Part shown: in pieces, positions 7,964 to 44,717 of the stretch
Layout of the letters: each line of letters begins with the position of its first letter
Position numbering within the stretch: position 1 is the first letter of the stretch
Assembly: GCA_024654625.1 (NCBI GenBank)
Contig: JANLHB010000016.1
Location: forward strand, 64,137-128,136
Direction: 5' to 3'
Origin: Patescibacteria group bacterium
Lineage (GTDB): Bacteria > Patescibacteriota > Minisyncoccia > GCA-002772825
DNA: 64,000 bases
Program-made: the position numbers and the translations under genes
Notes under the pieces: model-generated
Told to the model about the DNA's origin: nothing
Databases searched by the model: none
The model's input: the letters and a program-made list of their open reading frames with translations, nothing else

Positions 7964-8716
7964 ATGTCTTACTATAAAAGCAACGACAGCCAGAAGGAAT
8001 TTTTTAATCAGATTATAGATACATACAGAATAGGAAATGAGGCAAACATAGACCTCTTGCTTAATTTAAGGAATGCAGTATCTGAGTTCATTGAGGGTGA
8101 TATTTTGGATATTGGTAATGGAGGATTAATAAATTTTGATATTGATAAAGCTAAATCAGTGATTTTAGCTGATATTGTTTTGGACCCAATAAAGAATCCA
8201 AAAATAATTAAAGGTAGATCCATTGTAGAGCTGGACGAAGACCATAAGAAACTTTTTAATTTCGTAGAAGCGGATGTTTTAAAAATGCCTTTTGCCGATA
8301 AAAGTTTTGATAGAGTTCTGATGTTTAATGTAGCTCATCATCTTTCGGTGGAATCTTCTAAGGATTCTGTTTTAAATATTAACTATGCCATAGATGGCAT
8401 TAAGAGGATTTTGCGCGATGATGGTATTTTTTTGATATGGGAGACTTGCCCATCTTTTCCGATTAAATTGGCTCAAGATGCGGGCTATAATTTATTATTT
8501 TGGATATTAAAAAAATTTAACAGGCCCTTGCCTTATTTTTTGGCCAGAAAAAATATAAAAAAATTACTGGAGAAAAAGGGATTTAATTTGATTTTAGTTA
8601 AAGAGATAGAATGGGGAGACAAAGTTTATTCACCTATATTTCCAAAGATCCTTGCTCCTAGATGGCTGTGGAATAAAATTTTGAGGACTTATTTATTTGT
8701 GGCTAAGAAAAATTAG
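7964..8716 (+). CDS. class I SAM-dependent methyltransferase
   Basis: Glycine-rich motif I (ILDIGNGGL), an acidic loop, and VLMFNVAHHL (post-II/III region), typical of Methyltransf_11/12. Confidence 0.6.
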   Translation: MSYYKSNDSQKEFFNQIIDTYRIGNEANIDLLLNLRNAVSEFIEGDILDIGNGGLINFDIDKAKSVILADIVLDPIKNPKIIKGRSIVELDEDHKKLFNFVEADVLKMPFADKSFDRVLMFNVAHHLSVESSKDSVLNINYAIDGIKRILRDDGIFLIWETCPSFPIKLAQDAGYNLLFWILKKFNRPLPYFLARKNIKKLLEKKGFNLILVKEIEWGDKVYSPIFPKILAPRWLWNKILRTYLFVAKKN

Positions 8717-11921: not shown

Positions 11922-13595
11922 TTAAGGAACAATCAATATCTTTTTATCTTTAATAATTATGGACTGGACCCGGCCATTATCATCTTTTGGAGATTTTGTA
12001 TATATTAGGTCAATTAAGGTTTTTGTTTTTGCTTCAGTCGGCAATATTATTAGAGCTGAAAAAGGATATTCAGATATTTGTTTCAGGTAAGTGAAGTCGC
12101 GAACCAAATCCTCTTTGTCATCAAAGTATAAAATAGGCATATCGTGGTAATACATATCATAATAACGCGTCATTGTCGGTGTGATTGAGTCGCCGTAATA
12201 CTCCGGAGGAAACATGGTGAATATTACAGTATCTTCTAAAGCAAACGGCTTAAGAGAATTTTTTAGTTCATACGCAAAATCTATCTTCTCTTGTTCGTAT
12301 GTGTTATTAGGCCACTGTTTTATATAAGCGAACGTCCTGCTCGTCTGCAGTGACCACATAAAAATACTTAAAGAAATTAAAACAAGAACAAAGATTTTTT
12401 GCGAGAGTTGTTTTTTTATAATCCAATAAATCATAAATATAAATATACCTGCTATAAAAGCCGCAAATACTCCCAATATCCGTCCTTTATAAGGATGATT
12501 ATCTGTCAGTATAAGAGATTGGAAAAAAGCACTTCCTCCTAAGAGTATCGCATACTTGTATATATCGGGTATTGTGCTATTTATATATTTTATTTTTCTT
12601 AACTTGAAAAATGCGACTACAATGGTGGCGATAAAGATCAAAGCATAACGCAATCGGAAAGAGAAAGCAAAAGCCTCAGTTATGGGAAATAGTATTCCTT
12701 GCAGAAAACGCTGTTTTATAAAATTTTGCCCTGAATTTGAAGCAAGTGGAATAGCATTGAAAGCGCCAAAAAAGTCTGAAAGCATATTGTAGAAGCCTAA
12801 ATACCATGAGTTTTGGATTACCTGGACACCAAATGCTAAAACAGGCGCGCAGGAGAAGAGAAGCCATTTTTTCCATGGAAAATTCTTGACGATCAGGATA
12901 TCAAGACCTATGAGCCAGAAAAAGACAAAAAAAGTTGAATCGTAAGAAGATACGGAGAGGACGAAATAAGAGAGCCATGCCCACATGCTATAAGTAAAAT
13001 ATTTTTTGCTATTACTTATGTTTTTGATGGCCAGCACACTAAGAAATAGGATAATAAAACGAAAAAAGTCGTCTATCGGCATATTGGCCAGCGAATCGGC
13101 AAAGTCTAAAAAGGGAACGGATATCATGTAAAACAACACAGCGAAAAACGCGATTGCTTTATTGCTGATCAAAATAAAAAATTTATACAGCAAAAACAAG
13201 CTTCCCATGGAAATGAGTATCTGAAATAACCTAAACCAAAATCGGTTTTCAAAACCAAGCTCCATTAAAAAGGCGAGAGGAAATAAATAACCTGACGGAT
13301 AATGCGTATAATATGTTTGTTTTGTGCCTTTGCCCCCGGTAACATCAACCCAGGCATGTTGTTTTAAATTTGGATCATCAAAATAATGCGTTGTTTTTGA
13401 ATATCCTGCAGGAATAAACAAGAAATAATGATTTGTCCATCCATCATTTACCCAATGTTTGATGCTCATCATCGTCTGGGCTGAGCCAAAACCCCAACCG
13501 TCCCAACTATTTTCATGAGTAGCTTTTACGGTTAGGTATATACCAATAATACTGATAAATGTTATTAATAGGTATGTTAAGAAATGTTTTTTCAT
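11922..13595 (-). CDS. paralogue D of the membrane-protein family (minus strand)
   Basis: Carries WDGWGFGSAQTMMS..HW..DGW, YYTHYPSGYLFPLAFLMELGFENRFWFR, ADSLANMPIDD and SSYDSTFFVFFWLIGLDI. The C-terminus is divergent. Confidence 0.6.
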   Translation of the reverse strand: MKKHFLTYLLITFISIIGIYLTVKATHENSWDGWGFGSAQTMMSIKHWVNDGWTNHYFLFIPAGYSKTTHYFDDPNLKQHAWVDVTGGKGTKQTYYTHYPSGYLFPLAFLMELGFENRFWFRLFQILISMGSLFLLYKFFILISNKAIAFFAVLFYMISVPFLDFADSLANMPIDDFFRFIILFLSVLAIKNISNSKKYFTYSMWAWLSYFVLSVSSYDSTFFVFFWLIGLDILIVKNFPWKKWLLFSCAPVLAFGVQVIQNSWYLGFYNMLSDFFGAFNAIPLASNSGQNFIKQRFLQGILFPITEAFAFSFRLRYALIFIATIVVAFFKLRKIKYINSTIPDIYKYAILLGGSAFFQSLILTDNHPYKGRILGVFAAFIAGIFIFMIYWIIKKQLSQKIFVLVLISLSIFMWSLQTSRTFAYIKQWPNNTYEQEKIDFAYELKNSLKPFALEDTVIFTMFPPEYYGDSITPTMTRYYDMYYHDMPILYFDDKEDLVRDFTYLKQISEYPFSALIILPTEAKTKTLIDLIYTKSPKDDNGRVQSIIIKDKKILIVP

Positions 13596-14965
13596 ATTTT
13601 GGTTTTTTTTGTTAAGTCGAGCAGGCCTGATATTGCAAACATAATAATAAATGGCGAAGCGGAAAAGCGATAGCGTATCATATCTCCTGCCGCCATATTC
13701 CCTATGAGAAGCAGATAAAGTATTATAGACGCAATTAGTATTATATAGGATCTGGTGTTTGTATCTGATTTTTTAAATAAAATAATAGCGCCTAAAACGG
13801 ACAATAATAAAGTTACTATCCAAAAAATTGTTCCAAATATCATTATTAATGCAGCGATTATTTCTTTTGAATGGAAGTTTGAAATCTTTTTTATATTGAG
13901 TTCTAAAATGGCATTTTTTACTTCTTTATGGTAATTGACTTGTCCGCTTGTCCCTTTGATTAGATTTCTTATGGATCCCCACCATGATGAACCAACAGTA
14001 TCTGTCAGAAGATGCTTGAAGTAAAAAGCGGTGAAGCCTAATGGTTTTGATAAAATTATTTTTGTTGATTTTTTTATGGCCGCGGAGGTCTTGTCTAAGT
14101 GGCCTGATTCTTTAAATTTTGGCAAGCCGCTTTCTTTCGGTATTTCTGTCGGTGTATTTTTGAATCCTTTTTGTTCTGCTTTAAATTGCGAGGCGGTTAT
14201 ATAGATACTTGAAGCGTTATCTGAAGAGATTTGCCAAGAATTGAAAGTAATATAATTTCTAAAGGACCACGGTAATAAAAGAATAACATATATAGAGAAT
14301 ATCATACTGAGTTGAATTAATGTTTTCTTTGAAAACATACTGTTTAAGAAATTTAAATTTTCTGTCTTACTGTTAGCGTATATTATAGTGGGCGCAAATA
14401 TCATCGGCAGTAATAAAGAGGTTGGTCTTATGTATGTTAAAGTTGCAAGTAATAATGCGGCGATAAGTATAAAATATTTTGTATTTTTTATTTCACCTGT
14501 GTATTTTATAAAAATACAAACGATTATAAGGAGGAAAAGAATATAAATAGGCTCTGTAAAAAATTGAGATGATATGTCTATAGCGTATAATTCAAAAGCC
14601 CATATTAATGATACGGCTATTGACCAAGATTGATTTAGCCATTTTCTTGAAATTAAATACAAAAGAACAGCGCTTATGCCGGCTATAGCGTGCTGGATAA
14701 ATAAAACGGCCCACCAGTTTTTGAATATACTAAAAATTACAGCTAGAAAAAGAGGATACCCGGGCATTCTTAGGGCCGTAGGGTTAATGCCGTCAAGTGA
14801 GAAGGAGAATGATTTGGATAAATTTTCGGCTATCTGAAAGTAATAATCAGTAGTTAATCCTTCGAGCGGAAGATTGTTGGCTATTTTTAAAAGTGTGAAA
14901 AAGCTATATACTATAAATACTGAGAGAAATATCAAAAGTTCAGTCTTTCTTGTTTTAAGCGTCAT
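13592..14965 (-). CDS. GT-C fold membrane glycosyltransferase, PMT_2/ArnT-like
   Basis: Has the LRMPGYPLFLAVIF loop motif and many TM helices. Its start overlaps the upstream gene. Confidence 0.6.
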   Translation of the reverse strand: MTLKTRKTELLIFLSVFIVYSFFTLLKIANNLPLEGLTTDYYFQIAENLSKSFSFSLDGINPTALRMPGYPLFLAVIFSIFKNWWAVLFIQHAIAGISAVLLYLISRKWLNQSWSIAVSLIWAFELYAIDISSQFFTEPIYILFLLIIVCIFIKYTGEIKNTKYFILIAALLLATLTYIRPTSLLLPMIFAPTIIYANSKTENLNFLNSMFSKKTLIQLSMIFSIYVILLLPWSFRNYITFNSWQISSDNASSIYITASQFKAEQKGFKNTPTEIPKESGLPKFKESGHLDKTSAAIKKSTKIILSKPLGFTAFYFKHLLTDTVGSSWWGSIRNLIKGTSGQVNYHKEVKNAILELNIKKISNFHSKEIIAALIMIFGTIFWIVTLLLSVLGAIILFKKSDTNTRSYIILIASIILYLLLIGNMAAGDMIRYRFSASPFIIMFAISGLLDLTKKTKI

Positions 14966-14988: not shown

Positions 14989-16356
14989 ATGAATTATCTA
15001 TATTTTACAAAGAAATATTGGTTTCCGATTCTAGTGCTTCTCATTATCATCGTCAATGCTTTAATCTTCCTGCCCAAGTATGGCGCGTGGGGTGGACCCA
15101 CTGATGTGGAATATAACGAGACTGCTATTAACATGGCAAATGGCGACGGCTTTTCTTTGGGTGGAGAGAGAACGATGTTTCGTGAGCCGGCTTATCCTTT
15201 CTTTTTGGCTTTGAACTATAGGTTATTTGGGGTTAATTGGACAATAATTAGGATAGAGCAATTTTTATTGCTGTTTCTAATAATTTATCTTACCTATATA
15301 ATTTCTTATGAGATTTTTGGTGTTTTAACGGCGAGAATCGCCTCCTTGGCAATAGTTGTGTTGCCGATATTTCCTATATATGCCACAGATATTATTTCCG
15401 AAATTTTTGCCGCTTTTTTGGTAGTTTTATTTATTTATTTATTTTTAAAAAGTCTAAGCTTCAAAAAGGTGAGACCTTTTTATGTGGAAAAAGGTCTCAC
15501 CTTTTTGTTATTAAGCGGGTTGGTCTTTGGAATACTGGCTCTTACAAAAAGTATTTTTATTTTTTTACCTGTTTTGATTTTGCCGATCTATTTATTAAAG
15601 GACAGAAAATATGGTTTAAAAAATATAGTATTATTCTTTTTTGCTTTTTTAGTTATTGTATCCCCATGGGTTTATAGAAATTATATAAATTTTGGAAATA
15701 TGGCTATTGCCGATAGAGGGGGGATGCTTATGTATCTTCACTCTATAAAAAGCGAATTTAGCGTCAATAAATTGAAAGATTATGCTGTCGCCTCTTTAAC
15801 CGGAGAATATATCGTCCGTCTTTATAATCCGGATTTTAATATTGTTGAGGGAGAGGGGATATACCTGATGAATCAGCATAGGGCAGAACTTTTAAATAAT
15901 GGATTGAATTTCTCCCAAGCTGATGAAGTGATGTCAAAAGAGGCTGAAGTATTATATCTGAAGCATCCTGTTAAAAATTTGTTAATAGGCTTCTTGGAGG
16001 TAGCGAAAGTTAATGCGCCTATGGCGCCAAAGTACTCTATAATGTTCGCTTTCCCTGAAGATATCGGCAGTTCACTTTTTGAAAAGGTTATGAAAACGGG
16101 AATTGTCTTAATTATAAGGCTATTATGGGCTATTATCTTGCTTATGGCTTTTTGGGGCGCTTATAAGGCTTTAAGAGAAAAAAATATAAAAGCTATAGTG
16201 ATGTTATTTTTTATAATTTATCTAAATGGTGTAATTTTTTTTCTGCAAGGCGTGCCAAGATTTATTTTTGTAATTTATCCTTTTTATTTTATTTTTTTTG
16301 CTTTCAGTATTTCTATTATTTTAAATAAATTTTTTTATGGAAATAAAGAATTATAA
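14989..16356 (+). CDS. GT-C fold membrane glycosyltransferase, PMT_2/ArnT-like
   Basis: Has the FREPAYPFFLALNYRLFG motif. It is transcribed divergently from 13592-14965 with only 23 bp between the two start codons. Confidence 0.6.
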   Translation: MNYLYFTKKYWFPILVLLIIIVNALIFLPKYGAWGGPTDVEYNETAINMANGDGFSLGGERTMFREPAYPFFLALNYRLFGVNWTIIRIEQFLLLFLIIYLTYIISYEIFGVLTARIASLAIVVLPIFPIYATDIISEIFAAFLVVLFIYLFLKSLSFKKVRPFYVEKGLTFLLLSGLVFGILALTKSIFIFLPVLILPIYLLKDRKYGLKNIVLFFFAFLVIVSPWVYRNYINFGNMAIADRGGMLMYLHSIKSEFSVNKLKDYAVASLTGEYIVRLYNPDFNIVEGEGIYLMNQHRAELLNNGLNFSQADEVMSKEAEVLYLKHPVKNLLIGFLEVAKVNAPMAPKYSIMFAFPEDIGSSLFEKVMKTGIVLIIRLLWAIILLMAFWGAYKALREKNIKAIVMLFFIIYLNGVIFFLQGVPRFIFVIYPFYFIFFAFSISIILNKFFYGNKEL

Positions 16357-17062
16357 ATTAAAACTTACAATAGTAGTACCGGCTTTTAACGAAGAAAAGA
16401 ATCTTGAGTTTACCATAAGAGGACTCATGTACGTTCTAAATGAAAAACGCTTAGAAAATTATGAAATCATTATTTTTGATGACTCTTCATCTGATAGAAC
16501 AGGAATTATTGCTGATCGGCTTGCCTTAGAAAATAAGGGAATAAAGGTGATTCATAATAAGATAAATATGGGCTTTGGCTACAATTATAAGAAGGGTGTA
16601 GAAATGTCAGCCGGAGAGTATGTGATGATTATCCCAGGGGATAATGAAGTAATATCTTCTTCTTTTGGATACTTGATTGATTCAATAGGCAAGGCAGATA
16701 TAGTCTTAAGCTATATTGATAACGTAAAAGAACGATCTTGGATTCGCAGGATAATTTCATTTTTTTATGTTAAGTTTTTGAATTTTCTTTTTAGTTTGAA
16801 TATGAAATATTATAACGGGATAAGCATATATCCTGTTTCATTGGTTAAAAAAACTATGCCGACAACTTTTGGTTTTGCCTTTGCGGCGGAGATTGCAATA
16901 AGACTTTTAAAGTCAGGGGCGACTTATATTGAGGTTCCAATGTTTATAAGGCCAACTAATAAGACTTCGGCTTTTAGATTGAAAAATATTATAAGTGTTA
17001 TGAAAACTATAATTATTCTTTTCTGGAGTATTAATATAAAAAAAGAGAGAGCGGAAATTTGA
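16337..17062 (+). CDS. GT2 glycosyltransferase, DPM1/GtrB-like polyprenyl-phosphate glycosyltransferase
   Basis: IVVPAFNEEKNL, an IIFDDSSSD DxD-type motif, and a C-terminal membrane anchor. It is a paralogue of 21897-22619. Confidence 0.75.
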   Translation: MEIKNYKLKLTIVVPAFNEEKNLEFTIRGLMYVLNEKRLENYEIIIFDDSSSDRTGIIADRLALENKGIKVIHNKINMGFGYNYKKGVEMSAGEYVMIIPGDNEVISSSFGYLIDSIGKADIVLSYIDNVKERSWIRRIISFFYVKFLNFLFSLNMKYYNGISIYPVSLVKKTMPTTFGFAFAAEIAIRLLKSGATYIEVPMFIRPTNKTSAFRLKNIISVMKTIIILFWSINIKKERAEI

Positions 17063-17086
17063 CACCCTTTACTTTTCTCATATAAA
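17059..17086 (+). promoter_or_regulatory. sigma70-like promoter TTGACA-N16-TATAAA upstream of the GT9 gene
   Basis: TTGACA at 17059-17064 and TATAAA at 17081-17086. The downstream leader is shared with the three radical-SAM leaders. Confidence 0.5.
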
Positions 17087-17158
17087 AGTTAGTATATTTT
17101 TGGAAGATAAAATAAAATATTCGGTTCTTTAATTTAAACATAAATAAGGGGGTGTAAA

Positions 17159-18172
17159 GTGAAGAAAGAAAAAGTCCTTATAATAAAGCCCGGGTATTCC
17201 GAGACGCTTGTAAATGACATCGGAACAAAAACAAGCCTTGGTGATGTGCTAAGAAGCACTGTCATATTGCCTTTGTATAAAGATGCTCATGTCACATGGC
17301 TAGTAGATGAGAAGGCAGTATCTTTGCTCAAGGGGAATATCTACATCGACAGGATAATGACTTACGATCTCACGAGTATCTTACAGCTTCAGAAGGAGAG
17401 GTTTGATACTGTCATAAACCTTGAGAAGGTTGGCGGACTTTGCGCCCTCGCCGATAGTATAAATGGCTGGAGGCGATACGGTTTCAGGTTTGACCCTGAG
17501 ATCGGAGAAATCAAGGCTTATGACGGTTCTCAGCATGTCGTGGAGCTGTGTTCAAATCTTGACGGGAAACGCTCTAACCAGAAGCTATGGGAAGAGTTTC
17601 TCTTTGAGATGGTGGGCGCCAAGTGGGATGGCGAGATGCCTATTCTTGGTTACAAACCGAAATCAAAAGAGATTTTTGACATCGGCTTTAACCACAATGT
17701 CGGCGATAAATGGCCAATAAAGGCGTGGCCTAAAGATTACTGGGAAAAATTACAGCAATTTATCGGCGGAAGATTTTCTGTTTCATGGCAACAGGGACTC
17801 GGCTCTATAGAAGAGTATATAGAGTGGATAAGTTCTTGCCGTTTTATTATCACTAACGACAGTCTTGGTCTGCACATCGCTCACGCCCTTGATAAAAAGA
17901 TCATCGCCCTTTTTGGCCCAACTGTTTCAGGTGAAGTGTATGTTAGGAAAGGGATAAAGCTTTTACCTGATCCTAGGCCGGATTGCCTCCCGTGTATGAG
18001 CAATATATGCAAGCAAGGAGTGTCTTGCATGTATGACATAAGACCGGAGAGGGTGCTCGCTGAAGTCAACAATCTAATGTCGGGTGGCGAGACTTCTTCG
18101 GGCGAAAGTGATATTCAAGAGAAGCGCGGTCTTATCCCTTCTAAGCCGGATTTCAAAGGTATCGGCTATTGA
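17159..18172 (+). CDS. GT9 family glycosyltransferase (ADP-heptose:LPS heptosyltransferase-like)
   Basis: GTG start. An N-terminal KVLIIKPGYS..GD block and a C-terminal FIITNDSLGLHIAHALDKKIIALFGPT block match the GT9 signature. GC is higher than the surrounding genes. Confidence 0.6.
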   Translation: MKKEKVLIIKPGYSETLVNDIGTKTSLGDVLRSTVILPLYKDAHVTWLVDEKAVSLLKGNIYIDRIMTYDLTSILQLQKERFDTVINLEKVGGLCALADSINGWRRYGFRFDPEIGEIKAYDGSQHVVELCSNLDGKRSNQKLWEEFLFEMVGAKWDGEMPILGYKPKSKEIFDIGFNHNVGDKWPIKAWPKDYWEKLQQFIGGRFSVSWQQGLGSIEEYIEWISSCRFIITNDSLGLHIAHALDKKIIALFGPTVSGEVYVRKGIKLLPDPRPDCLPCMSNICKQGVSCMYDIRPERVLAEVNNLMSGGETSSGESDIQEKRGLIPSKPDFKGIGY

Positions 18173-18200
18173 TTTATGTCCGATCTTGATGTTCTATCGC

Positions 18201-18243
18201 CCCTCATCTTTTCTTATAAAAGAAAAGATGAGGGGTTTTTTTC
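18201..18243 (+). terminator. rho-independent terminator
   Basis: Stem CCCCTCATCTTTTC / GAAAAGATGAGGGG followed by T7. Confidence 0.75.
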
Positions 18244-18327
18244 TTGCAAAAATGCGAAATAATGATATCGTTTAAGTGGAAAAAAGAAGGTCTTTAACTT
18301 TTAAATATAAATAACAGGAGGGTTAAA
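18244..18327 (+). promoter_or_regulatory. promoter TTGCAA-N16-TATCGT plus conserved 5' leader (copy 1 of 3 near-identical units)
   Basis: TTGCAA at 18244-18249 and TATCGT at 18266-18271. The leader ...GTTTAAGTGGAAAA...GGTCTTTAACTTTTAAATATAAATAACAGGAGG precedes the ATG at 18328. Confidence 0.6.
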
Positions 18328-19203
18328 ATGGAGAAGAAAGTTATGTTGCCGTCAGTAAAGATTCCCGAGCCTTATAATTACATAGCGGTGTTTTTAACAC
18401 TTGCTTGTAACTTAAAGTGCAGTTACTGCATCAATGACTTTGAGTCAGGATCCAAAAAGAAAGGCGGGGAGCTTTTATCCGGAGATGAGTGGATAACCGG
18501 TCTAAAGAGGATTATCTCAAGATCAGACCTGCCTGTAACTCTTCAAGGCGGAGAGCCAAGCTTGCATAAGGATTTTATATACATACTTAATAATATAAAA
18601 TCCGAATTGCATGTAGATGTTCTTACGAATCTTCAGTTTAACGTTGATGAGTTTATCAAGAAGGTTGACCCGAATCGCGTGAAGAGAGAATCACCTTACG
18701 CATCTATACGAGTGAGTTATCACCCTGAGCAGGTGAACCTCGGCTCCTTGGTAAATAAAGTTTTGAAGATGCAGTATGTAGGGTTTCATATAGGTATCTG
18801 GGGCGTGATGCATCCTGCTCAGAAGGGGTATATCCTTGACGCCCAGAGACATTGCCTTTATCAGGGAATAGATTTTCGCCTTAAAGAATTTCTCGGTGAG
18901 CATAAAGGAAAGATGTACGGGGAATATAAGTATCCTGAAGCTTGCAATAGAGAATCAAAAAAAACGGTTCTTTGTAAGACGACTGAGCTTATCATCGGTC
19001 CTGACGGATCGGTATACCGCTGTACAGCTGACCTCTATGAAGGCAGAGAACCGGTAGGGCATATCCTTGATCCGGATTTCAGGATAGAGGATAAATACAG
19101 GCCATGTAACTGGTATGGCCATTGCAACCCGTGTGACATAAAAGTGAAGACCAATCGTCATCAAAAGTTTGGTCACACTTCTGTTGATATAATCGGAGCT
19201 TAG
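18328..19203 (+). CDS. radical SAM protein with C-terminal Cys-rich (SPASM/twitch-like) domain
   Basis: CNLKCSYC (CxxxCxxC) near the N-terminus and a TLQGGEP SAM motif. C-terminal cysteine clusters are CKTTELIIGPDGSVYRC and CNWYGHCNPC. It resembles BtrN/anSME-type dehydrogenases in size and layout. Confidence 0.7.
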   Translation: MEKKVMLPSVKIPEPYNYIAVFLTLACNLKCSYCINDFESGSKKKGGELLSGDEWITGLKRIISRSDLPVTLQGGEPSLHKDFIYILNNIKSELHVDVLTNLQFNVDEFIKKVDPNRVKRESPYASIRVSYHPEQVNLGSLVNKVLKMQYVGFHIGIWGVMHPAQKGYILDAQRHCLYQGIDFRLKEFLGEHKGKMYGEYKYPEACNRESKKTVLCKTTELIIGPDGSVYRCTADLYEGREPVGHILDPDFRIEDKYRPCNWYGHCNPCDIKVKTNRHQKFGHTSVDIIGA

Positions 19204-19220
19204 AGTAACTATTTAACACC

Positions 19221-19254
19221 AACCCCGCCAGTTTTAAATGGCGGGGTTTTTTTA
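19221..19254 (+). terminator. rho-independent terminator
   Basis: Stem AACCCCGCC / GGCGGGGTT followed by a T-run. Confidence 0.75.
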
Positions 19255-19334
19255 TTGCAAAAACATAGAATAATGGTATGGTTTAAATGGAAAAGGATAT
19301 ATAAACTTGAACTTTAAAATAAAAGGAGGCGTTA
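19255..19334 (+). promoter_or_regulatory. promoter TTGCAA-N16-TATGGT plus conserved leader (copy 2)
   Basis: Near-identical to 18244-18327 and 20541-20632. Confidence 0.6.
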
Positions 19335-20486
19335 ATGAAAAGCAATACGGATCTGGACAGCAACCTTATATTAGATGGCCATAAGCTCTGGCTTCCTGAA
19401 CACAGGGATCGTTTGGAAGCATGGCAGATGGGTGAAAGAATAGTGCCTATCACTATCGATATGGCGCTGACAAGAAGTTGCAACTATAGGTGCGAGTATT
19501 GTTACGCCACGCTTCAGGATAATGATATAAAGAAGATGACGCTTGATGTCATCTATCGTTTCCTTGATGATGCATCAGAGATGGGCGTTAAAGCGATAAG
19601 CTTTGTCTCAGACGGAGAGAGTACTTGTTCACCTCATCTTTATGATGCCATCTTGCGTGGGCATAACAACGGACTTAGTATGGCTCTTGGCACCGCTGGC
19701 TATCTTCTTAAAGACGAGCGGTTGGAAGAGATACTTCCGGCTTTGACATATTTGAGATTCAATATGTCGGCGGGTGTGCCTAGCCGGTATTCCGAGATCC
19801 ACGGTGTGCCGAAAGACTACTTCAATAAAGTGGTAAACACTGTTATAAAAGCGGTGGATATAAAGAGAAAGAAAAGTCTTGGTGTCACAATCGGACTTCA
19901 GATGGTCCTCCTCTCTAAGTATAAGGATCAGATCATACCTTTATCTCACTTGGGAAAAGTGCTCGGTGTAGACTATCTTGTACTGAAGCACTGCTCGGAT
20001 GACCAGAAGGGTTCACTAGGCGTAGATTTCTCGTCATATCATGAGCCTGATATTATGGCTCTACTTGATTCGGCAGAAGCGCTCTCTAGTGATTCCTATA
20101 CCGTTAAAGCGAAAAGGTCAAAGATCTTTAGTGACGGTAAAAGATGTTACTCTCGTTGCTATGGTCCGCCGTTTTTCTTACAGTTCTCTGGGAGTGGACT
20201 GGTTGCGCCGTGCGGGATGCTTTTCGGCAAAGAGTATAAGAAGTATCACATCGGCAATATCGCCGAGAAGTCGTTTAAGGAGATCTGGCAGAGCGATAGA
20301 TACTGGGAAGTGCTGAATATTCTCTCTTCAGGCAGGTTTGATGCACAGACTATGTGCGGGTGCCTGTGTATCCAGCATAAGATAAACGAGTTTCTTTGGT
20401 CTTTGAAAGAGGGAAATTCGGGTAGGATCATTGAGGAGTGTGACAAAATAGATAGTTTCGGGCTTATCCACCGTAACTTTCTTTAG
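19335..20486 (+). CDS. radical SAM/SPASM-domain protein
   Basis: CNYRCEYCY radical-SAM motif and C-terminal clusters CYSRCYGPPF...APCG...CGCLCIQH. It is a paralogue of 20573-21754. Confidence 0.7.
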   Translation: MKSNTDLDSNLILDGHKLWLPEHRDRLEAWQMGERIVPITIDMALTRSCNYRCEYCYATLQDNDIKKMTLDVIYRFLDDASEMGVKAISFVSDGESTCSPHLYDAILRGHNNGLSMALGTAGYLLKDERLEEILPALTYLRFNMSAGVPSRYSEIHGVPKDYFNKVVNTVIKAVDIKRKKSLGVTIGLQMVLLSKYKDQIIPLSHLGKVLGVDYLVLKHCSDDQKGSLGVDFSSYHEPDIMALLDSAEALSSDSYTVKAKRSKIFSDGKRCYSRCYGPPFFLQFSGSGLVAPCGMLFGKEYKKYHIGNIAEKSFKEIWQSDRYWEVLNILSSGRFDAQTMCGCLCIQHKINEFLWSLKEGNSGRIIEECDKIDSFGLIHRNFL

Positions 20487-20501
20487 TTCTTTCGGGTTTA
20501 T

Positions 20502-20540
20502 GACCCACGTTTCGCGTTAAGCGGAGCGTGGGTCTTTTTA
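20502..20540 (+). terminator. rho-independent terminator
   Basis: Stem GACCCACG / CGTGGGTC followed by T5. Confidence 0.7.
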
Positions 20541-20632
20541 TTGCAAAAATGTGAAATAATGATATGGTTTAAATGGAAAATATAAGATCTTTAACTTTAA
20601 ACTTTCTAAAATATAAGGGGGTTGCGATGAGT
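20541..20632 (+). promoter_or_regulatory. promoter TTGCAA-N16-TATGGT plus conserved leader (copy 3)
   Basis: TTGCAA at 20541-20546 and TATGGT at 20563-20568. It contains the same GTTTAAATGGAAAA and TCTTTAACTTTAAAC blocks as the other two copies. Confidence 0.6.
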
Positions 20633-21754
20633 GATAAATATCTTATAGACGGACAGAAGCTTAAGTATCACGAAGAGAGGGTAAAAAGATGGCTTAGTGC
20701 GACGACGTGGAAAAATGCGAAAAAGATTTATCCTATCTATCTTGAGATCTCGCCTTTTGGCGCTTGTAATCACCGTTGCGTTTTTTGCGGGGTTAAGACT
20801 TTAGGGTATAAGAATAATTTTATCAGGCGAGAAGTGCTTCTTGAGAGAATCAAGGAGATGGGGCGCCTGGGGATAAGAAGCATAATGTATGCTGGAGAAG
20901 GCGAGCCTCTTCTTCACTCTAATATCGCAGAGATTGTATCTGCGACTAAAGAGGCGGGGATTGATGCGGCTTTCACCACGAATGGCGTTTTTTTGGAGAA
21001 GATATTTCCTATCCTTGGCGACATCTCTTGGGTCAAAGTCAGTATAAATGCCGGCACCGCAGGCACTTATAAAGAGATCCATAAAGCCAAAGAAGGTAAT
21101 TTTGAGAAAGTCTTAGGAAATATCAGAAAAGCGTTTTGGCTTAAAAAGAATAAGAACTACTCCTGTGTTATCGGCGCGCAAATAGTTGTCCTTCCGGAGA
21201 ATGAGAACGAGATACTCATTCTCGCGGGCGAGTTGTCAAAAAAGGGTGCCGATTATCTTGTAGTCAAACCGTACTCTTCTCACCCACTTGATAACAATGA
21301 CGCTATTGATATCAAGAATCTCGGTTATTATGATCCTGGGTTTCTTGTGTCTTTAGAGTGGGTAGAACACCGCGCTTCCTCAAAAAATTTTAAGGTTATC
21401 GTCCGTTATAATGCCTTTAGAAGTGTTGCGGATAAAGAAAAATCTTATGATAGGTGTCTTTCAGTTCCTTTTTTCTGGGGATACATTACCGCAAAGGGCG
21501 ACGTGTATTCTTGCTCTGTCTTCTTTGGAGATGAAAGATTTAAGCTCGGTAATATAAACGAGCAGACTTTTCAGGAGATATGGGAAGGGGAAAAGAGACG
21601 ACAAAACTGGGAGATGATGAAAGATTTTGATGCCTCAGTGTGCCGTAAGGGGTGCCGAATGGATGCCTGCAATAGATTTCTGTCTTCAGTGAAAGAGCAA
21701 GGATTTCCTGTTCTTGTTGACAGAAAGGATATCAAACACATCAACTTTATATAA
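20573..21754 (+). CDS. radical SAM/SPASM-domain protein
   Basis: CNHRCVFCG motif and a glycine-rich AGEGEPLL motif. C-terminal clusters are CSVFF...CRKGCRMDAC. The start could instead be the ATG at ~20633 (MSDKY...) given the leader alignment. Confidence 0.65.
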   Translation: MENIRSLTLNFLKYKGVAMSDKYLIDGQKLKYHEERVKRWLSATTWKNAKKIYPIYLEISPFGACNHRCVFCGVKTLGYKNNFIRREVLLERIKEMGRLGIRSIMYAGEGEPLLHSNIAEIVSATKEAGIDAAFTTNGVFLEKIFPILGDISWVKVSINAGTAGTYKEIHKAKEGNFEKVLGNIRKAFWLKKNKNYSCVIGAQIVVLPENENEILILAGELSKKGADYLVVKPYSSHPLDNNDAIDIKNLGYYDPGFLVSLEWVEHRASSKNFKVIVRYNAFRSVADKEKSYDRCLSVPFFWGYITAKGDVYSCSVFFGDERFKLGNINEQTFQEIWEGEKRRQNWEMMKDFDASVCRKGCRMDACNRFLSSVKEQGFPVLVDRKDIKHINFI

Positions 21755-21772
21755 AGAAAGAGAGACTTCAAC

Positions 21773-21805
21773 CAAACCCGTCTTGCGTCAGGCGGGTTTT
21801 TCTTT
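21773..21805 (+). terminator. rho-independent terminator
   Basis: Stem ACCCGTC / GGCGGGT (one G-U pair) followed by T5. Confidence 0.6.
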
Positions 21806-21817
21806 TGTCTATAATCT

Positions 21818-21843
21818 GTTCAATCCGCCATGGCGGATTGAAC
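21818..21843. repeat. 26-bp perfect palindrome GTTCAATCCGCCATGGCGGATTGAAC
   Basis: Read directly from the sequence. It lies just after the cassette terminator and before the downstream GT2 paralogue. Confidence 0.8.
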
Positions 21844-21896
21844 ATGGATTTAAGATATAGTTACTGGAAAAAAAGCGAGAAATCAGCTATATTTTA

Positions 21897-22619
21897 ATGA
21901 TGACAAAGCTTTCTATAATTGTTCCCGCCTATAATGAGGAGAGGGGATTAGCCTTGGCTGTGAACAGCCTTTTTTCTCTATTGTCGGAGAATAATATGGC
22001 AAGCGATGCCGAGATTTTAATATTCAATGATTGTTCTTTAGATAAGACCGGAGAGATTGCTAATGATCTTGCTAAGAATATAAATATAGTAAAGGTCTTT
22101 CATAATAAAAAAAATATGGGTCTTGGCTTCAACTTCAGAGAAGGGGCAAGACAATCCAAGGGAGAATATGTAACATGGTTTCCGGGCGATAACGAGAACT
22201 TACCGCAGTCTTTCGTAGACACTGTTAGTCGAATAGGCGAGGCGGATATCATCATTCCCTATACTGACAATATGGAAGTGAGGCCATTTTTACGCCGTCT
22301 TGTCTCCAGACTCTATACGGATTTAAATAATTTTCTCTTTAGACTGCATTTAAAATACTACAATGGTCTTTCTGTATATCGTCGCGATCTCCTGTTGTCT
22401 GTCTTGCCGAAGATTGGTGATAGTTTCGCTTTCTCCGCTCAGATACTCATTATGCTCTTGAAATCGGGCGCCAGTTTCGTAGAGGTGCCTATTAAAATAC
22501 AATCAAAGCCGGGCGGTAAGAGTTCTGCCTTTAGAATGAAAAATATAATAGGAGTTATAAAAGCCATTCTTTCTCTGTTCTGGAGAATTAATATAAAGAG
22601 AGAAAGAGTAAAAATATAA
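21897..22619 (+). CDS. GT2 glycosyltransferase, DPM1/GtrB-like (paralogue of 16337-17062)
   Basis: LSIIVPAYNEE, an FNDCSLD motif, and a C-terminal tail SAFRMKNIIGVIKAILSLFWRINIKRERVKI nearly identical to the tail of 16337-17062. Confidence 0.75.
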   Translation: MMTKLSIIVPAYNEERGLALAVNSLFSLLSENNMASDAEILIFNDCSLDKTGEIANDLAKNINIVKVFHNKKNMGLGFNFREGARQSKGEYVTWFPGDNENLPQSFVDTVSRIGEADIIIPYTDNMEVRPFLRRLVSRLYTDLNNFLFRLHLKYYNGLSVYRRDLLLSVLPKIGDSFAFSAQILIMLLKSGASFVEVPIKIQSKPGGKSSAFRMKNIIGVIKAILSLFWRINIKRERVKI

Positions 22620-39031: not shown

Positions 39032-39943
39032 ATGGAAAATAAAAAGATAAAAGTAGTGGTAACTGGAGGAGCCGGCTTTATAGGCTCTCATTTAGTAGAT
39101 GAACTTATCGAAAGGGAATTTGATGTTCACATAATAGATAATCTTTCAAACGGCAAGGTAGAGAATGTAAATCCTAAAGCGGTTTTGCATAAGGAGGATA
39201 TAAGAAACTTTGAAGCTGTTAAAAAAATTGTTGATGGAACTCGATACGTATTTCATTTGGCGGCGCTTCCTCGGGTGCAGTATTCAATAGAAAATCCGAT
39301 TGAGACACATGATGTTAATGTCAATGGAACATTAAATCTATTGGTTGCAGCAAAGGATGCTGGCGTGAAGAAGTTTATCTATTCTGCTTCAAGTTCTGCT
39401 TACGGAGATCAGAATATGATGCCTCTTCATGAAGAAATGCCTGCAAATCCAATTAGTCCTTATGGCCTGCAAAAGTATATAGGCGAATTAAAATGCCGGG
39501 TTTTCAGTAGGGTTTATGGTTTGCCGACAGTTTCTCTTCGTTATTTCAATGTCTACGGTCCTCGTTTTAACGCGGACGGCGCTTATGCTCTTGTGATAGG
39601 GAAATTCTTAAAGCAGAAAAAAGAAGGAAAGCCTATGACTGTTGTTCCGGATGGAGAGCAGACTAGAGACTTTACCAATGTTAGAGATGTTGTAATGGCT
39701 AATATTTTGGCTATGGAAAGTGACAAAGTTGGAAAAGGAGAGGTATTTAACATCGGTGCTGGCAGGAATTTTAGCGTCAATCAAGTCGCTTCTTTAATAG
39801 GCGGACCGACTGAATTTTGCGAGCCTCGGCTTGAGCCAAAGCATACACTTGCCGATAATTCTAAAGCAAAAAATATTCTAGGTTGGGAGCCGAAAGTCTC
39901 TTTAGAAGAGGGAATTGAAGAGTTAAAAAGATTATATCTTTAA
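39032..39943 (+). CDS. NAD-dependent NDP-sugar epimerase/dehydratase (SDR extended family, GalE-like)
   Basis: VTGGAGFIGSHL Rossmann motif, an SSSAYG serine, and a YGLQKYIGE YxxxK catalytic motif. Confidence 0.85.
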   Translation: MENKKIKVVVTGGAGFIGSHLVDELIEREFDVHIIDNLSNGKVENVNPKAVLHKEDIRNFEAVKKIVDGTRYVFHLAALPRVQYSIENPIETHDVNVNGTLNLLVAAKDAGVKKFIYSASSSAYGDQNMMPLHEEMPANPISPYGLQKYIGELKCRVFSRVYGLPTVSLRYFNVYGPRFNADGAYALVIGKFLKQKKEGKPMTVVPDGEQTRDFTNVRDVVMANILAMESDKVGKGEVFNIGAGRNFSVNQVASLIGGPTEFCEPRLEPKHTLADNSKAKNILGWEPKVSLEEGIEELKRLYL

Positions 39944-44018: not shown

Positions 44019-44068
44019 GGGAAGCCTAAAAAACCTTTAAAACCGGGAATTTAAGCCAAAAGCTCAAA

Positions 44069-44098
44069 CCCGATGTCTTACGAGACATCGGGTTTTTG
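44069..44098 (+). terminator. rho-independent terminator after secA
   Basis: CCCGATGTCT tacg AGACATCGGG followed by TTTTTG. Confidence 0.75.
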
Positions 44099-44140
44099 TA
44101 TTACCAACAGAAAGTGTCACGGGAATTAACCAATAAAAAT

Positions 44141-44389
44141 ATGAGCACAAACATGAGAAATTCACACTTAGAAAAATCGAAGCGAAACCAGCAGATCAAG
44201 AAGTTGCTGGCCAGCGGAAGGACTCAGGCGGAAGTCGCCAGAGAGTTCAACATCACTGTCCAGCGACTCAACCAACTGGTGCAGAAGTGGGTCTGGCAAG
44301 GACTCCTCGAAAGGAATGAGGAAGGGTTTGCCATGCCCTCAAAGGTCGAACACCAGCAAAAGTTATCCACAACCAATAAAAAAATATGA
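44141..44389 (+). CDS. small HTH DNA-binding protein (first gene of the phage-like region)
   Basis: The GRTQAEVAREFNITVQRLNQLVQKW helix-turn-helix resembles sigma-region-4 or resolvase HTH domains. Codon usage switches to GC-rich here. Confidence 0.45.
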   Translation: MSTNMRNSHLEKSKRNQQIKKLLASGRTQAEVAREFNITVQRLNQLVQKWVWQGLLERNEEGFAMPSKVEHQQKLSTTNKKI

Positions 44390-44682: not shown

Positions 44683-44717
44683 AGGTCGAATTAATAAACC
44701 AATTAAAAATTACAACC

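What the first reader, a model, noticed from the sequence alone, without database searches (positions are those of the whole stretch)
17059..21850. Compositionally distinct cassette of GT9 plus three radical-SAM/SPASM genes, each monocistronic, inserted between two GT2 paralogues
Genes 17159-21754 are visibly more GC-rich, with different codon usage, than the surrounding ~30% GC island. Every gene has its own sigma70-like promoter and its own rho-independent terminator, whereas the flanking glycan genes are ATGA-coupled operon genes. The cassette sits exactly between the two most similar DPM1-like GT2 genes, 16337-17062 and 21897-22619, whose C-terminal tails are nearly identical. The combination of three SPASM/twitch-type radical-SAM enzymes with a heptosyltransferase-like GT9 is unusual. 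Two readings are possible. One is a sugar-tailoring module, with BtrN/anSME-like radical dehydrogenation or epimerisation of a heptose or other sugar. The other is a peptide-maturation module whose precursor lies elsewhere.
Basis: partly seen in the sequence, partly recalled or inferred. Interest (0 to 1): 0.8.

Follow-up and report, generated by a model that had tools for sequence, protein, structure and literature searches.

The report
Radical-SAM sugar-tailoring cassette, horizontally acquired
A foreign-looking block of four genes in a Parcubacteria surface-sugar locus belongs to a widespread, unstudied enzyme module that most likely builds and attaches an unusual heptose-type sugar, and each gene has its own near-identical on/off signals.

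Summary
Genes 17159-21754 have GC 0.42 against 0.35±0.015 for the host part of the window (z=4.8). Their GC3 is 0.44-0.50 against about 0.31, and their codon usage lies outside 2000 resamplings. Each gene ends in a strong hairpin terminator. Three intergenic regions carry a roughly 85-nt promoter/leader unit found nowhere else in the 64 kb.

The interpretation needs correcting. This is not an arbitrary insert between two GT2 paralogues. It is one version of a conserved module: GT9 + rSAM1 + twitch-type rSAM3 + DPM1-like GT2, with or without rSAM2, a TPP enzyme and a B12-rSAM. About 100 loci from CPR, Thermodesulfobacteriota/Deltaproteobacteria, Omnitrophota and Brocadiaceae carry it. The GT2s belong to the module.

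The cassette sits at the same site in four related CPR contigs, so it is not a strain-specific insertion. Composition, phylogeny and mosaic identities still point to horizontal origin.

In three proteobacterial contigs the rSAM3 homologue lies in an operon with GmhA-like and HldE-like heptose-activation genes, an SDR and a TPP enzyme, followed by a further radical SAM gene (shown to be an rSAM2 homologue only in Methylomonas). One of these operons lies beside flagellin genes. Sugar tailoring of a heptose is favoured. Peptide maturation is not supported. No curated family or paper describes the module.

The parts
14989..16356 (+). PMT_2 / GT-C family membrane glycosyltransferase. It lies immediately upstream of the module in all relatives of the window's group.
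   Evidence: Pfam PF13231, 32.5 bits against a cut-off of 26.1. Orthologues of 70-71% identity lie directly upstream of GT9 or GT2a in L006, L019 and L020.
16337..17062 (+). GT2a, a DPM1-like family-2 glycosyltransferase of 241 aa with host-like composition (GC3 0.29). It overlaps the end of the PMT_2 gene.
   Evidence: PF00535, 79.8 bits. It is 79-84% identical to the GT2 upstream of GT9 in L006 and L022, 49% to GT2b, and 40-45% to the module GT2 of deltaproteobacterial loci.
17059..17158 (+). GT9 upstream region with two candidate promoters: TTGACA-16-TATAAA, and TTTACT-16-TAGTAT, which is conserved in four loci. It also holds a leader box TTCTTTAATTTAAA just before the Shine-Dalgarno GGGGG.
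   Evidence: Read from sequence. The region is conserved in L006, L019 and L020. The leader box was found at 17126-17139. Promoter function is inferred.
17159..18172 (+). GT9-family (heptosyltransferase-fold) glycosyltransferase of 337 aa with a GTG start. It has an invariant CxxCx4Cx5C motif and a disordered 30-aa tail.
18199..18236 (+). Intrinsic terminator after GT9: 17-bp stem followed by a T-run.
   Evidence: The hairpin is conserved with 4 compensatory pairs in L019 and L020.
18241..18327 (+). Promoter/leader unit 1: CTTGCAA-N16(TGA)-TATCGT, leader GTTTAAGTGGAAAA...TCTTTAACTTTTAAATATAAA, then SD AGGAGGG.
   Evidence: D1; nhmmer E=2.7e-17.
18328..19203 (+). rSAM1, a 291-aa radical SAM enzyme. 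It has CX3CX2C at residues 27-34 and a C-terminal auxiliary-cluster domain with five conserved Cys: 216, 232, 260, 266 and 269 (Cx15C with Gx4C, then Cx5Cx2C).
19221..19248 (+). Intrinsic terminator after rSAM1.
19252..19334 (+). Promoter/leader unit 2.
   Evidence: E=4e-11.
19335..20486 (+). rSAM2, a 383-aa radical SAM/SPASM-type enzyme and a paralogue of rSAM3 (about 27% identity). It has an N-terminal DGxKLxxHxxR motif, a C-terminal HxNF motif, and five conserved auxiliary Cys.
   Evidence: PF04055 54.8 bits and PF13186 34.7 bits. Orthologues occur in L020 (83%), L005 (63%) and L014 (65%). It is 38.5% identical to the 463-aa rSAM of the Methylomonas heptose-type operon.
20502..20534 (+). 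Intrinsic terminator after rSAM2.
   Evidence: It is conserved in L019 and L020 with one compensatory pair.
20539..20626 (+). Promoter/leader unit 3. The ATG at 20573 lies inside it and is not the gene start.
   Evidence: E=1.5e-14.
20627..21754 (+). rSAM3, a 375-aa twitch-type radical SAM enzyme with exactly four conserved auxiliary Cys. It is the module's most widespread rSAM.
   Evidence: PF04055 70.1 bits and PF13186 43.7 bits. The best solved relatives are BlsE 7vob (E=6e-10) and the BtrN C-terminal domain (E=4e-5). It is present in 24 of 28 complete loci. Homologues of 46-48% identity lie in GmhA/HldE-like operons.
21774..21799 (+). Intrinsic terminator after rSAM3.
   Evidence: Equivalent hairpins are present in L019 and L020.
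21861..21896 (+). GT2b promoter region: TTACTGG...GCTATATTTTA. Its -10-like TATATT ends about 5 nt before the ATG, which suggests a leaderless or near-leaderless mRNA.
   Evidence: Sequence conserved in L019 and L020. Function is inferred.
21897..22619 (+). GT2b, a DPM1-like GT2 of 240 aa with intermediate composition (GC3 0.40). It is the first gene of the downstream GT4-Wzx-methyltransferase operon.
   Evidence: PF00535, 80.1 bits. It is 87-88% identical to the GT2 following the cassette in L019 and L020, and 43-49% to the module GT2 in deltaproteobacterial loci.
39032..39943 (+). SDR-family nucleotide-sugar epimerase/dehydratase, a possible distal partner of the module.
   Evidence: It is 46% identical to the SDR inside the Methylomonas rSAM3 / GmhA-like / HldE-like operon. 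Pfam Epimerase, 213 bits. NCBIfam gives no equivalog above cut-off. The link is inferred.

Best explanation
The four genes are a horizontally acquired version of a conserved, uncharacterised glycan module that occurs in several phyla.

Proposed working, with shown and inferred steps marked:
1. A nucleotide-activated heptose-type sugar is the substrate. This is inferred from the GT9 fold and from proteobacterial operons that add GmhA-like and HldE-like genes.
2. The twitch-type enzyme rSAM3 and its paralogue rSAM2 carry out radical, oxygen-independent tailoring of that sugar. This is BtrN/BlsE-like chemistry, such as dehydrogenation to a keto-sugar, epimerisation or decarboxylation (inferred). 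In most relatives a two-subunit TPP enzyme then adds a C2 unit. This window lacks that enzyme.
3. The GT9 enzyme, always paired with rSAM1, transfers the sugar to a non-LPS acceptor (inferred).
4. The DPM1-like GT2 and the neighbouring PMT_2 GT-C enzyme pass a polyprenyl-phosphate-linked sugar to a cell-surface acceptor (inferred).

The block entered an ancestor of this Parcubacteria/Saccharibacteria group from a higher-GC lineage. It has stayed at the same site beside the PMT_2 gene. Its genes are expressed as separately insulated units, each with a terminator, a shared promoter, a shared leader and a Shine-Dalgarno sequence, and they have been swapped or lost individually.

The confidence of 0.55 is for the overall reading: a sugar/glycan-tailoring member of the conserved GT9-rSAM module, of horizontal origin. 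The specific claim that the substrate is a heptose stands at about 0.4.
For: Module membership:
- Among 28 loci with at least 6 kb on both sides of GT9, rSAM1 is present in 24, rSAM3 in 24, one or the other in 28, GT2 in 19, E1 alpha/beta in 16-17 and rSAM2 in 12 (arrangements).
- GT9 and rSAM1 are 60-81% identical across CPR, Thermodesulfobacteriota, Nitrospirae and others.

GT9 identity:

Heptose link:
- rSAM3 homologues (46-48% identity) in Methylomonas sp. BW4-1, Paludibacterium purpuratum and a third contig lie in operons with an SDR, an SIS/GmhA-like gene, an HldE-like adenylyltransferase+kinase gene, a TPP enzyme and a further radical SAM gene, together with large GTs in Methylomonas and Paludibacterium. 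Only the Methylomonas rSAM was compared with rSAM2 (38.5% identity). The third operon is beside fliC, flaG, fliD and fliS.
- rSAM3 is immediately followed by a TPP enzyme (PDH-E1-like or split transketolase) in 26 of 47 cases, and one is present in the locus in 40 of 47.

Glycan context:
- The window itself carries GT4s, Wzx, Wzy_C, deacetylases and methyltransferases.
- Other loci carry SDRs, GT4, AsnB and B12-rSAMs.

rSAM classification:
- CX3CX2C plus 4-5 conserved auxiliary Cys. The nearest solved relatives are BlsE and BtrN.

Horizontal origin:
- GC3 is +0.15 over the flanks in the window, L019, L020 and L005, while the module is compositionally native in high-GC hosts such as L001.
- In an NJ tree the window's group is sister to the high-GC deltaproteobacterial clade.
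- Identities are mosaic. For rSAM1 the window is 74% identical to L006 but 57% to L019 and L020. For rSAM2 it is 83% to L020 but 44% to L019. Flanking genes are 70-88% identical.

Insulated units.
Against: - No enzyme of the module has been characterised, and every NCBIfam equivalog score is far below its cut-off.
- No GmhA-like or HldE-like gene is present in the window or within 10 kb of GT9 in about 100 loci. The heptose donor therefore rests on the GT9 family assignment and on three proteobacterial operons that lack GT9.
- The GmhA-like and HldE-like genes themselves score below cut-off, and the HldE-like domains are in swapped order.
- The window and L019 lack the TPP enzyme that accompanies rSAM3 elsewhere, so the chemistry here may differ.
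- The very high conservation of GT9 and rSAM1 is unusual for surface-glycan enzymes and would also fit a small-molecule or cofactor pathway.
- The GC3 contrast persists in lineages whose flanking genes have diverged to 70-88% identity. This is hard to reconcile with a single old transfer followed by normal amelioration.
- Promoters are inferred, and the generic promoter scan was not enriched.
Confidence: 0.55

Rival explanations
1. The genes form a peptide (RiPP) maturation module. The SPASM/twitch rSAMs would cross-link or epimerise a ribosomal peptide encoded elsewhere, and the GT9 would glycosylate it.
Against: No credible small ORF lies in or beside the cassette. The intergenic DNA is fully taken up by terminators and promoter units. 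No conserved short ORF recurs across about 100 loci. The constant partners are GT9, GT2, TPP enzymes, SDRs and, in proteobacteria, heptose-activation genes. Sugar-acting rSAMs (BlsE, DesII, BtrN) score as well as or better than peptide maturases.
Confidence: 0.05
2. The module makes a small molecule or lipid rather than a surface glycan, for example a glycosylated cofactor, a compatible solute or a modified membrane lipid head group. GT9 and rSAM1 would be its conserved core.
For: GT9 and rSAM1 are 60-81% identical across distant phyla, with more than 100 invariant columns. That level is typical of core or cofactor enzymes rather than serotype-variable glycan enzymes. B12-rSAMs frequently accompany the module. 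In deltaproteobacterial loci the operon stands alone, without other glycan genes.
Against: In CPR the module is embedded between a GT-C and a GT2-GT4-Wzx operon. In proteobacteria the rSAM3 sub-module sits with giant GTs and once beside flagellin genes. In the deltaproteobacterial clade it abuts pilin genes. Gene content is variable, which suits glycan diversification.
Confidence: 0.15
3. The compositional contrast is not a trace of transfer. It would be maintained by selection on these genes, for example for expression level or mRNA properties, in a vertically inherited locus.
For: The same GC3 excess (+0.14 to +0.16) is seen in the window, L019 and L020, although their flanking genes have diverged to 70-88% identity and the cassette sits at the same site. 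No mobility genes were found.
Against: Other low-GC hosts carry fully ameliorated versions of the same genes, with GC3 differences near 0 in L039-L060. The window's group is sister to a high-GC clade. Identities are mosaic and gene content differs between relatives. Housekeeping genes MurB and SecA have host-like GC3.
Confidence: 0.12
4. The cassette is an assembly artefact: a GC-richer fragment from another organism joined into a metagenome-assembled contig.
For: The window comes from a MAG and also contains a second GC-rich block, the prophage.
Against: The same junctions, PMT_2-(GT2a)-GT9 and rSAM3-GT2b-GT4, occur in at least four independent assemblies from different samples: L006, L019, L020 and L022.
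Confidence: 0.01

Closest known systems
LPS-core ADP-heptose heptosyltransferases WaaC/WaaF (CAZy GT9; PDB 2H1F, 1PSW) and the Veillonella GT9 3TOV
   Different: Sequence identity is only 19-22%. NCBIfam heptosyltransferase I/II/III scores are 22-43 bits against cut-offs of 134-185. The protein is shorter (about 310 aa core) and has an insertion after strand 1. The host is a CPR bacterium, where an LPS-core acceptor is not expected (from knowledge of CPR, not tested). It is always paired with a radical SAM enzyme, which classical Waa enzymes are not.
Twitch/SPASM radical SAM enzymes that act on sugars: BtrN (2-deoxy-scyllo-inosamine dehydrogenase), BlsE (cytosylglucuronate decarboxylase) and DesII
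   Same: A CX3CX2C core plus a C-terminal auxiliary [4Fe-4S] domain. rSAM3 has exactly four conserved auxiliary Cys, like a twitch domain. BlsE is the best solved relative of rSAM3 (E=6e-10) and BtrN matches its C-terminal domain (E=4e-5). All sit in sugar or glycan gene contexts.
   Different: NCBIfam BlsE, DesII and anSME models score 32-44 bits against cut-offs of 349-450. rSAM2 and rSAM3 carry an N-terminal DGxKLxxHxxR extension and a C-terminal HxNF motif. These were not compared with the solved enzymes. The substrate is unknown.
PDH-E1-like two-subunit TPP enzymes proposed for two-carbon branch attachment on sugars (AviB1/AviB2 of avilamycin; YerE-type chemistry). Cited from my own knowledge, not checked in the paper library.
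   Same: In most relatives rSAM3 is followed by an E1 alpha/beta pair or a split transketolase. That pairing would suit C2 addition to a keto-sugar.
   Different: This window has no TPP enzyme.
Three-component extracytoplasmic glycosylation systems (GtrB/ArnC/DPM1-type GT2 plus a GT-C such as ArnT/PMT)
   Same: A roughly 240-aa DPM1-like GT2 with a hydrophobic C-terminal tail lies next to a PMT_2 GT-C.
   Different: No equivalog-level match was found. No GtrA-type flippase was identified. The deltaproteobacterial versions have the GT2 but no recognisable GT-C.

Membership tests
CAZy GT9 / Pfam PF01075 (heptosyltransferase family) | Profile match above the curated threshold | tested here: met
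   PF01075, 39.3 bits against a gathering score of 22, although it covers only profile positions 173-214.
CAZy GT9 / Pfam PF01075 (heptosyltransferase family) | GT-B fold closest to solved GT9 enzymes | tested here: met
CAZy GT9 / Pfam PF01075 (heptosyltransferase family) | Conserved N-terminal Asp (GD motif), Lys of the KxWP motif and C-terminal NDSGxxH motif | tested here: met
   D29, K184/K188 and N233-D234-S235...H239 are invariant in 26 homologues and align with 3TOV and 1PSW.
CAZy GT9 / Pfam PF01075 (heptosyltransferase family) | Uses ADP-heptose as donor | not testable with these tools
   Only indirect evidence exists: rSAM2/rSAM3 homologues share operons with GmhA-like and HldE-like genes in proteobacteria.
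LPS heptosyltransferase I/II/III equivalogs (TIGR02193/02195/02201) | Score above the NCBIfam equivalog cut-off | tested here: not met
   43.2 against 134.6, 30.5 against 185.3 and 22 against 170.2.
Radical SAM superfamily (PF04055) | CX3CX2C motif and a profile match above threshold in all three proteins | tested here: met
   36.4, 54.8 and 70.1 bits against 29.5. The three Cys are 100% conserved in 49, 16 and 51 homologues respectively.
SPASM/twitch subgroup | C-terminal auxiliary Fe-S domain: Cx9-15Gx4C followed by further Cys; 7-8 Cys for SPASM, about 4 for twitch | tested here: met
   rSAM2 and rSAM3 score 34.7 and 43.7 bits on PF13186 against 21.5. Conserved auxiliary Cys number 4 in rSAM3 (twitch-like), 5 in rSAM2 and 5 in rSAM1. 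rSAM1 has the Cx10Gx4C element but no Pfam SPASM hit.
Named rSAM equivalogs (BtrN-like, anSME, DesII, BlsE, PqqE, MftC, MoaA, QueE, tungsten-cofactor maturase) | Score above the curated NCBIfam cut-off | tested here: not met
   The best is TIGR04317 at 75-78 bits against 380. MoaA scores 55-58 against 284-325, QueE 42.6 against 260, BlsE 43.9 against 400, DesII 32 against 450, anSME 31.6 against 349, PqqE 28-38 against 381 and MftC 27-40 against 265. No BtrN model appeared among the listed NCBIfam matches. BtrN was compared only through PDB.
RiPP biosynthetic cluster | Precursor peptide gene next to the maturase(s) | tested here: not met
   No credible ORF of 20 aa or more lies in the intergenic DNA. 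No conserved small ORF recurs across loci.
Mobile gene cassette (integron cassette, transposon or genomic islet) | Integrase or transposase, attC/att or terminal repeats, and presence/absence polymorphism | tested here: not met
   No such genes lie in 1-44 kb. The only flanking direct repeat is the 99-nt GT2 tail at 78% identity. The cassette is present at the same site in all related contigs found. An empty site was not searched for exhaustively.
Anti-phage defence (prokaryotic viperin) | Full-length match to pVip models | tested here: not met
   Only the N-terminal cluster-binding region matches, about 90-150 of 257 profile positions, at 38-53 bits.

The most novel reading that the evidence does not exclude
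The GT9-rSAM1 pair together with rSAM3/rSAM2 and a TPP enzyme could define a previously undescribed, oxygen-independent pathway. It would convert a nucleotide-heptose into a new heptose-derived sugar, possibly branched or of higher carbon number, and attach it to non-LPS acceptors: pilins, flagellins or envelope polymers. The pathway would be spread by horizontal transfer among anaerobic groundwater and sediment bacteria, including monoderm CPR. In the window's lineage it would be carried as a string of individually insulated units (terminator, promoter, leader, gene), which allows gene-by-gene exchange.
Probability: 0.35. Interest if true: 0.8.

Novelty: new variant of a known kind. Interest (0 to 1): 0.6.

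Why it matters
Radical SAM enzymes that tailor sugars are few and each has revealed new chemistry (my own knowledge, not checked here). This module offers three unassigned families. At least two are very large: about 2,400 GT9, 2,800 rSAM1 and 3,700 rSAM3 relatives at E≤0.001. They show unusually strong conservation and have a testable substrate hypothesis, a nucleotide-heptose.

The module places a heptosyltransferase-fold enzyme in CPR bacteria, where an LPS-core acceptor is not expected (my own knowledge, not tested here). That points to an unknown acceptor and to surface chemistry relevant to how these episymbionts attach to hosts.

Cultivated carriers of the rSAM2/rSAM3 sub-module (Methylomonas, Paludibacterium) make the question experimentally tractable.

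The repeated terminator-promoter-leader units are a clean natural example of modular, insulated gene expression in a transferred cassette.

Tried and rejected
- Exact-sequence look-ups of window proteins found nothing for rSAM3 with either start, or for the first ORF. I could therefore not extend beyond the window to look for GmhA or HldE in the same genome.
- Rfam found nothing at gathering thresholds. At E≤1 it gave only sub-threshold hits that overlap the terminators.
- The conserved leader has no consensus RNA structure: 0 pairs in 9 sequences. A riboswitch-like element is rejected. There is no conserved upstream ORF either (by eye).
- A DNA-pattern scan of JGI metagenomes for the promoter/leader unit found 0 matches. 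The unit is known only from the window, L019, L020 and L022.
- L005, another GC-contrast locus, has terminators but no repeated unit.
- PADLOC gave only a partial viperin-core match, so a defence reading is rejected.
- Eight literature searches found no description of the module. They combined heptosyltransferase, GT9, radical SAM, SPASM, ADP-heptose, thiamine, transketolase, flagellin glycosylation and Geobacter pilA. A Geobacter transcriptome paper (PMC10599522) lists GSU1514, 'heptosyltransferase family protein'. I could not test whether it is an orthologue.
- The AFDB fold library was unavailable.
- The pilin adjacency in deltaproteobacterial loci was considered as evidence for pilin glycosylation but down-weighted. 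All those loci fall in one GT9 clade, so they count as roughly one evolutionary observation.

Full report
**1. What is in the sequence**

The window comes from a Parcubacteria-group MAG. Its GT9 and rSAM1 proteins are 100% identical to NCBI proteins on a 213,731-bp contig.

Positions 1-40 kb form one large surface-glycan locus. It holds GT4s, three DPM1-like or other GT2s, two PMT-type GT-C enzymes, many Pfam-less 450-570-aa proteins (several of them paralogous), methyltransferases, polysaccharide deacetylases, Wzx, a Wzy_C-TPR protein, a B12-rSAM and an SDR. MurB and SecA follow.

The four genes of the finding are:
- GT9, 17159-18172
- rSAM1, 18328-19203
- rSAM2, 19335-20486
- rSAM3, which starts at 20627, not 20573, and ends at 21754

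**2. Check of the observation**

The cassette GC is 0.423. Other 4.6-kb windows in the host part average 0.349±0.015, giving z=4.8. Codon usage (RSCU distance 3.22) exceeds all 2000 resamplings of host genes. The difference lies mainly at third positions: GC3 is 0.44-0.50 against about 0.31. It therefore does not come mainly from amino-acid composition.

The four strongest terminator-like hairpins in 10-29 kb lie directly after the four genes. They are kept with compensatory changes in orthologous positions of two other contigs.

The three internal intergenic regions share a unit with these parts, in order:
- the T-run of the terminator
- CTTGCAA
- a 16-nt spacer ending in TGn
- TATSGT
- GTTTAAAYRGAAAAT
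- a variable stretch
- CTTTAACTTTTAAATATAAA
- the Shine-Dalgarno sequence

The unit occurs 3 times in 64 kb against 0 expected. It is conserved upstream of rSAM1, rSAM2, rSAM3 and a fused E1 gene in L019, L020 and L022.

GT9 has a different conserved upstream region that ends in the same TTCTTTAAYTTWAAA box. The generic promoter scan was not enriched, so promoter activity is an inference from position and conservation. The leader has no conserved RNA structure and no Rfam match.

Flanking genes overlap one another. GT2a and GT2b are 49% identical in protein. Only their last 33 codons are notably more alike, at 77% DNA identity against 57% overall.

**3. What it is: comparative evidence**

Homologues of GT9 are 60-81% identical in Thermodesulfobacteriota/Deltaproteobacteria, Paceibacterota, Saccharibacteria, Omnitrophota and Brocadiaceae. 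I collected 17 non-redundant loci and 80 metagenome loci and annotated them by BLAST against reference proteins.

Among 28 loci with at least 6 kb on each side of GT9:

| Partner | Loci with it (of 28) |
|---|---|
| rSAM1 | 24 |
| rSAM3 | 24 |
| rSAM1 or rSAM3 | 28 |
| module-type GT2 | 19 |
| PDH-E1 alpha/beta pair | 16-17 |
| rSAM2 | 12 |
| B12-rSAM (orthologue of the deltaproteobacterial operon's gene) | 11 |

In high-GC deltaproteobacterial contigs the genes form one compact operon: rSAM3-E1a-E1b-GT2-B12rSAM-small protein-GT9-rSAM1. Its composition is native (GC3 about 0.8 throughout L001). It lies next to a TPR protein, a pilin gene and PilS/PilR.

The module's GT2 is 40-49% identical to both GT2a and GT2b, but only 26% identical to the window's other GT2 at 35457-36320. 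The 'flanking paralogues' are therefore components of the module, not landmarks of an insertion site.

**4. The window's own lineage**

Four independent contigs share the arrangement (L006 labelled Saccharibacteria, plus L019, L020 and L022):

PMT_2-[GT2a]-GT9-rSAM1-[fused E1]-rSAM2-rSAM3-GT2b-GT4...Wzx

Flanking genes are 70-88% identical to the window's. In these contigs too the cassette genes are GC3-rich (0.38-0.52 against 0.25-0.36) and separated by 100-176-nt spacers.

This means the cassette is at the same site in all relatives found, and no mobility genes are present. The 'recent strain-specific insertion' idea is therefore weakened. Three observations still point to horizontal origin and later piecemeal exchange:
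- Other low-GC hosts carry compositionally ameliorated, compact versions.
- In an NJ tree the window's group is sister to the high-GC deltaproteobacterial clade.
- Identities are mosaic. For rSAM1 the window is 74% identical to L006 but 57% to L019 and L020. For rSAM2 it is 83% to L020 but 44% to L019. The fused E1 gene occurs only in L020, and GT2a only in the window, L006 and L022.

Why the GC3 excess persists in lineages this diverged remains unexplained.

**5. Function**

No protein reaches any NCBIfam equivalog cut-off.

- **rSAM3** has exactly four conserved auxiliary Cys, which is twitch-like. Its best solved relatives are BlsE and the BtrN auxiliary domain.
- **rSAM2** is a paralogue of rSAM3. 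The two share N-terminal DGxKLxxHxxR and C-terminal HxNF motifs.

The most informative result concerns rSAM3 homologues of 46-48% identity in proteobacteria:
- In Methylomonas sp. BW4-1 and Paludibacterium purpuratum they lie in operons with an SDR, an SIS/GmhA-like isomerase, an HldE-like adenylyltransferase+kinase, E1 alpha/beta, a 463-aa radical SAM protein and giant GTs. The Methylomonas 463-aa protein is 38.5% identical to rSAM2; the Paludibacterium one was not compared.
- A third contig has the same set, with a split transketolase and a 354-aa radical SAM gene (not compared with rSAM2), beside fliC, flaG, fliD and fliS.

In the low-GC clade the pair of unknown ORFs that follows rSAM3 is also a split transketolase. 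Overall, 26 of 47 rSAM3 genes are directly followed by a TPP enzyme, and 40 of 47 have one in the locus.

The window's SDR at 39032-39943 is 46% identical to the Methylomonas operon's SDR.

Together with the glycan context in CPR, this favours radical, oxygen-independent tailoring of a nucleotide-heptose-type sugar, transfer by GT9, and export through the GT2 and GT-C enzymes.

Caveats:
- The GmhA-like and HldE-like genes score below their equivalog cut-offs.
- None is found near any GT9 locus or in the window.
- The window lacks the TPP enzyme.

**6. Rivals**

- A RiPP module is unlikely. There is no precursor ORF, and the partners are glycan genes.
- A small-molecule or cofactor pathway remains possible because GT9 and rSAM1 are so strongly conserved.
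- A defence system and an assembly artefact are rejected.

**7. Novelty**

Eight full-text searches found no description of the module, and no curated model covers its proteins. I rate it a new variant of a known kind: radical-SAM sugar tailoring inside a glycan locus.

Two features are distinctive:
- the obligate pairing of GT9 with a radical SAM enzyme, in organisms where an LPS-core acceptor is not expected (my own knowledge of CPR; not tested here)
- the insulated, repeated terminator-promoter-leader units

Interest is 0.6.

Noticed in passing
window 44000-64000: A GC-rich block (0.43-0.54, GC3 0.45-0.67) with strong A-over-T skew, all on the + strand, encodes phage functions: an SU10-like major capsid protein (59850-61070), a portal protein (56029-57981), ParB, a DnaC/IstB-like ATPase, a Dam methylase and two PD-(D/E)XK nucleases. 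It is probably a prophage in a Parcubacteria genome, directly after secA. A chimeric join in the MAG is the alternative.
   Followed up: partly
window 21817-21844: A perfect 28-nt palindrome (TGTTCAATCCGCCA|TGGCGGATTGAACA) lies within extra sequence between the rSAM3 terminator and the GT2b promoter. The orthologous spacers of L019 and L020, which are about 42-53 nt shorter, lack it. It could be an operator, an extra hairpin or a small insertion.
   Followed up: no
window 21861-21899; L019 14900-14938; L020 12020-12057: GT2b's conserved -10-like TATATT ends about 5 nt before the ATG and no Shine-Dalgarno sequence is present. This suggests a leaderless or near-leaderless mRNA heading the GT2b-GT4-Wzx operon, in contrast to the long leaders of the cassette genes.
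   Followed up: no
window 4604-6316, 6313-7947, 8697-10352, 11922-13595(-): Four large proteins without Pfam hits are mutual paralogues. All match the same L019 gene (6957-8579) at 39-72% identity. They represent an expanded family of unknown, probably membrane, proteins in the glycan locus. The neighbouring Pfam-less ORFs 10330-11919 and 13592-14965(-) did not match that gene, and their relationship was not tested.
   Followed up: partly
L001, L007, L010, L011, L021, L023-L029 (deltaproteobacterial loci): In this clade the module operon is consistently followed, on the opposite strand, by a TPR protein, a type IV pilin-like (N_methyl) gene and PilR/PilS. A third proteobacterial contig has the rSAM3 sub-module beside flagellin genes. 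This hints that the product decorates surface filaments.
   Followed up: partly
L047 10912-12226; L071 7849-9280; contig: The TPP enzyme after rSAM3 is a PDH-E1 alpha/beta pair in some lineages and a split transketolase (Transketolase_N + Transket_pyr) in others. This looks like non-orthologous replacement at the same operon position. L020 has alpha and beta fused into one 658-aa protein.
   Followed up: partly
L102 12676-14196 (Methylomonas sp. BW4-1): The HldE-like protein has its domains in swapped order relative to E. coli HldE: adenylyltransferase at the N-terminus and PfkB kinase at the C-terminus. It scores well below the HldE cut-off (168 against 521 bits). It may therefore activate a sugar other than the LPS heptose.
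   Followed up: no
window 26517-28070: This ORF has very unusual codon-position composition (GC1+2 0.44, GC3 0.21), no Pfam hit, and its own upstream gap.
   Followed up: no
window 33085-34548 and many related loci (L016, L052, L057, L075): B12-binding radical SAM genes are strikingly abundant around the module, with up to four per 20 kb. The window's copy is only 20-27% identical to the deltaproteobacterial operon's B12-rSAM, so it is not an orthologue.
   Followed up: partly
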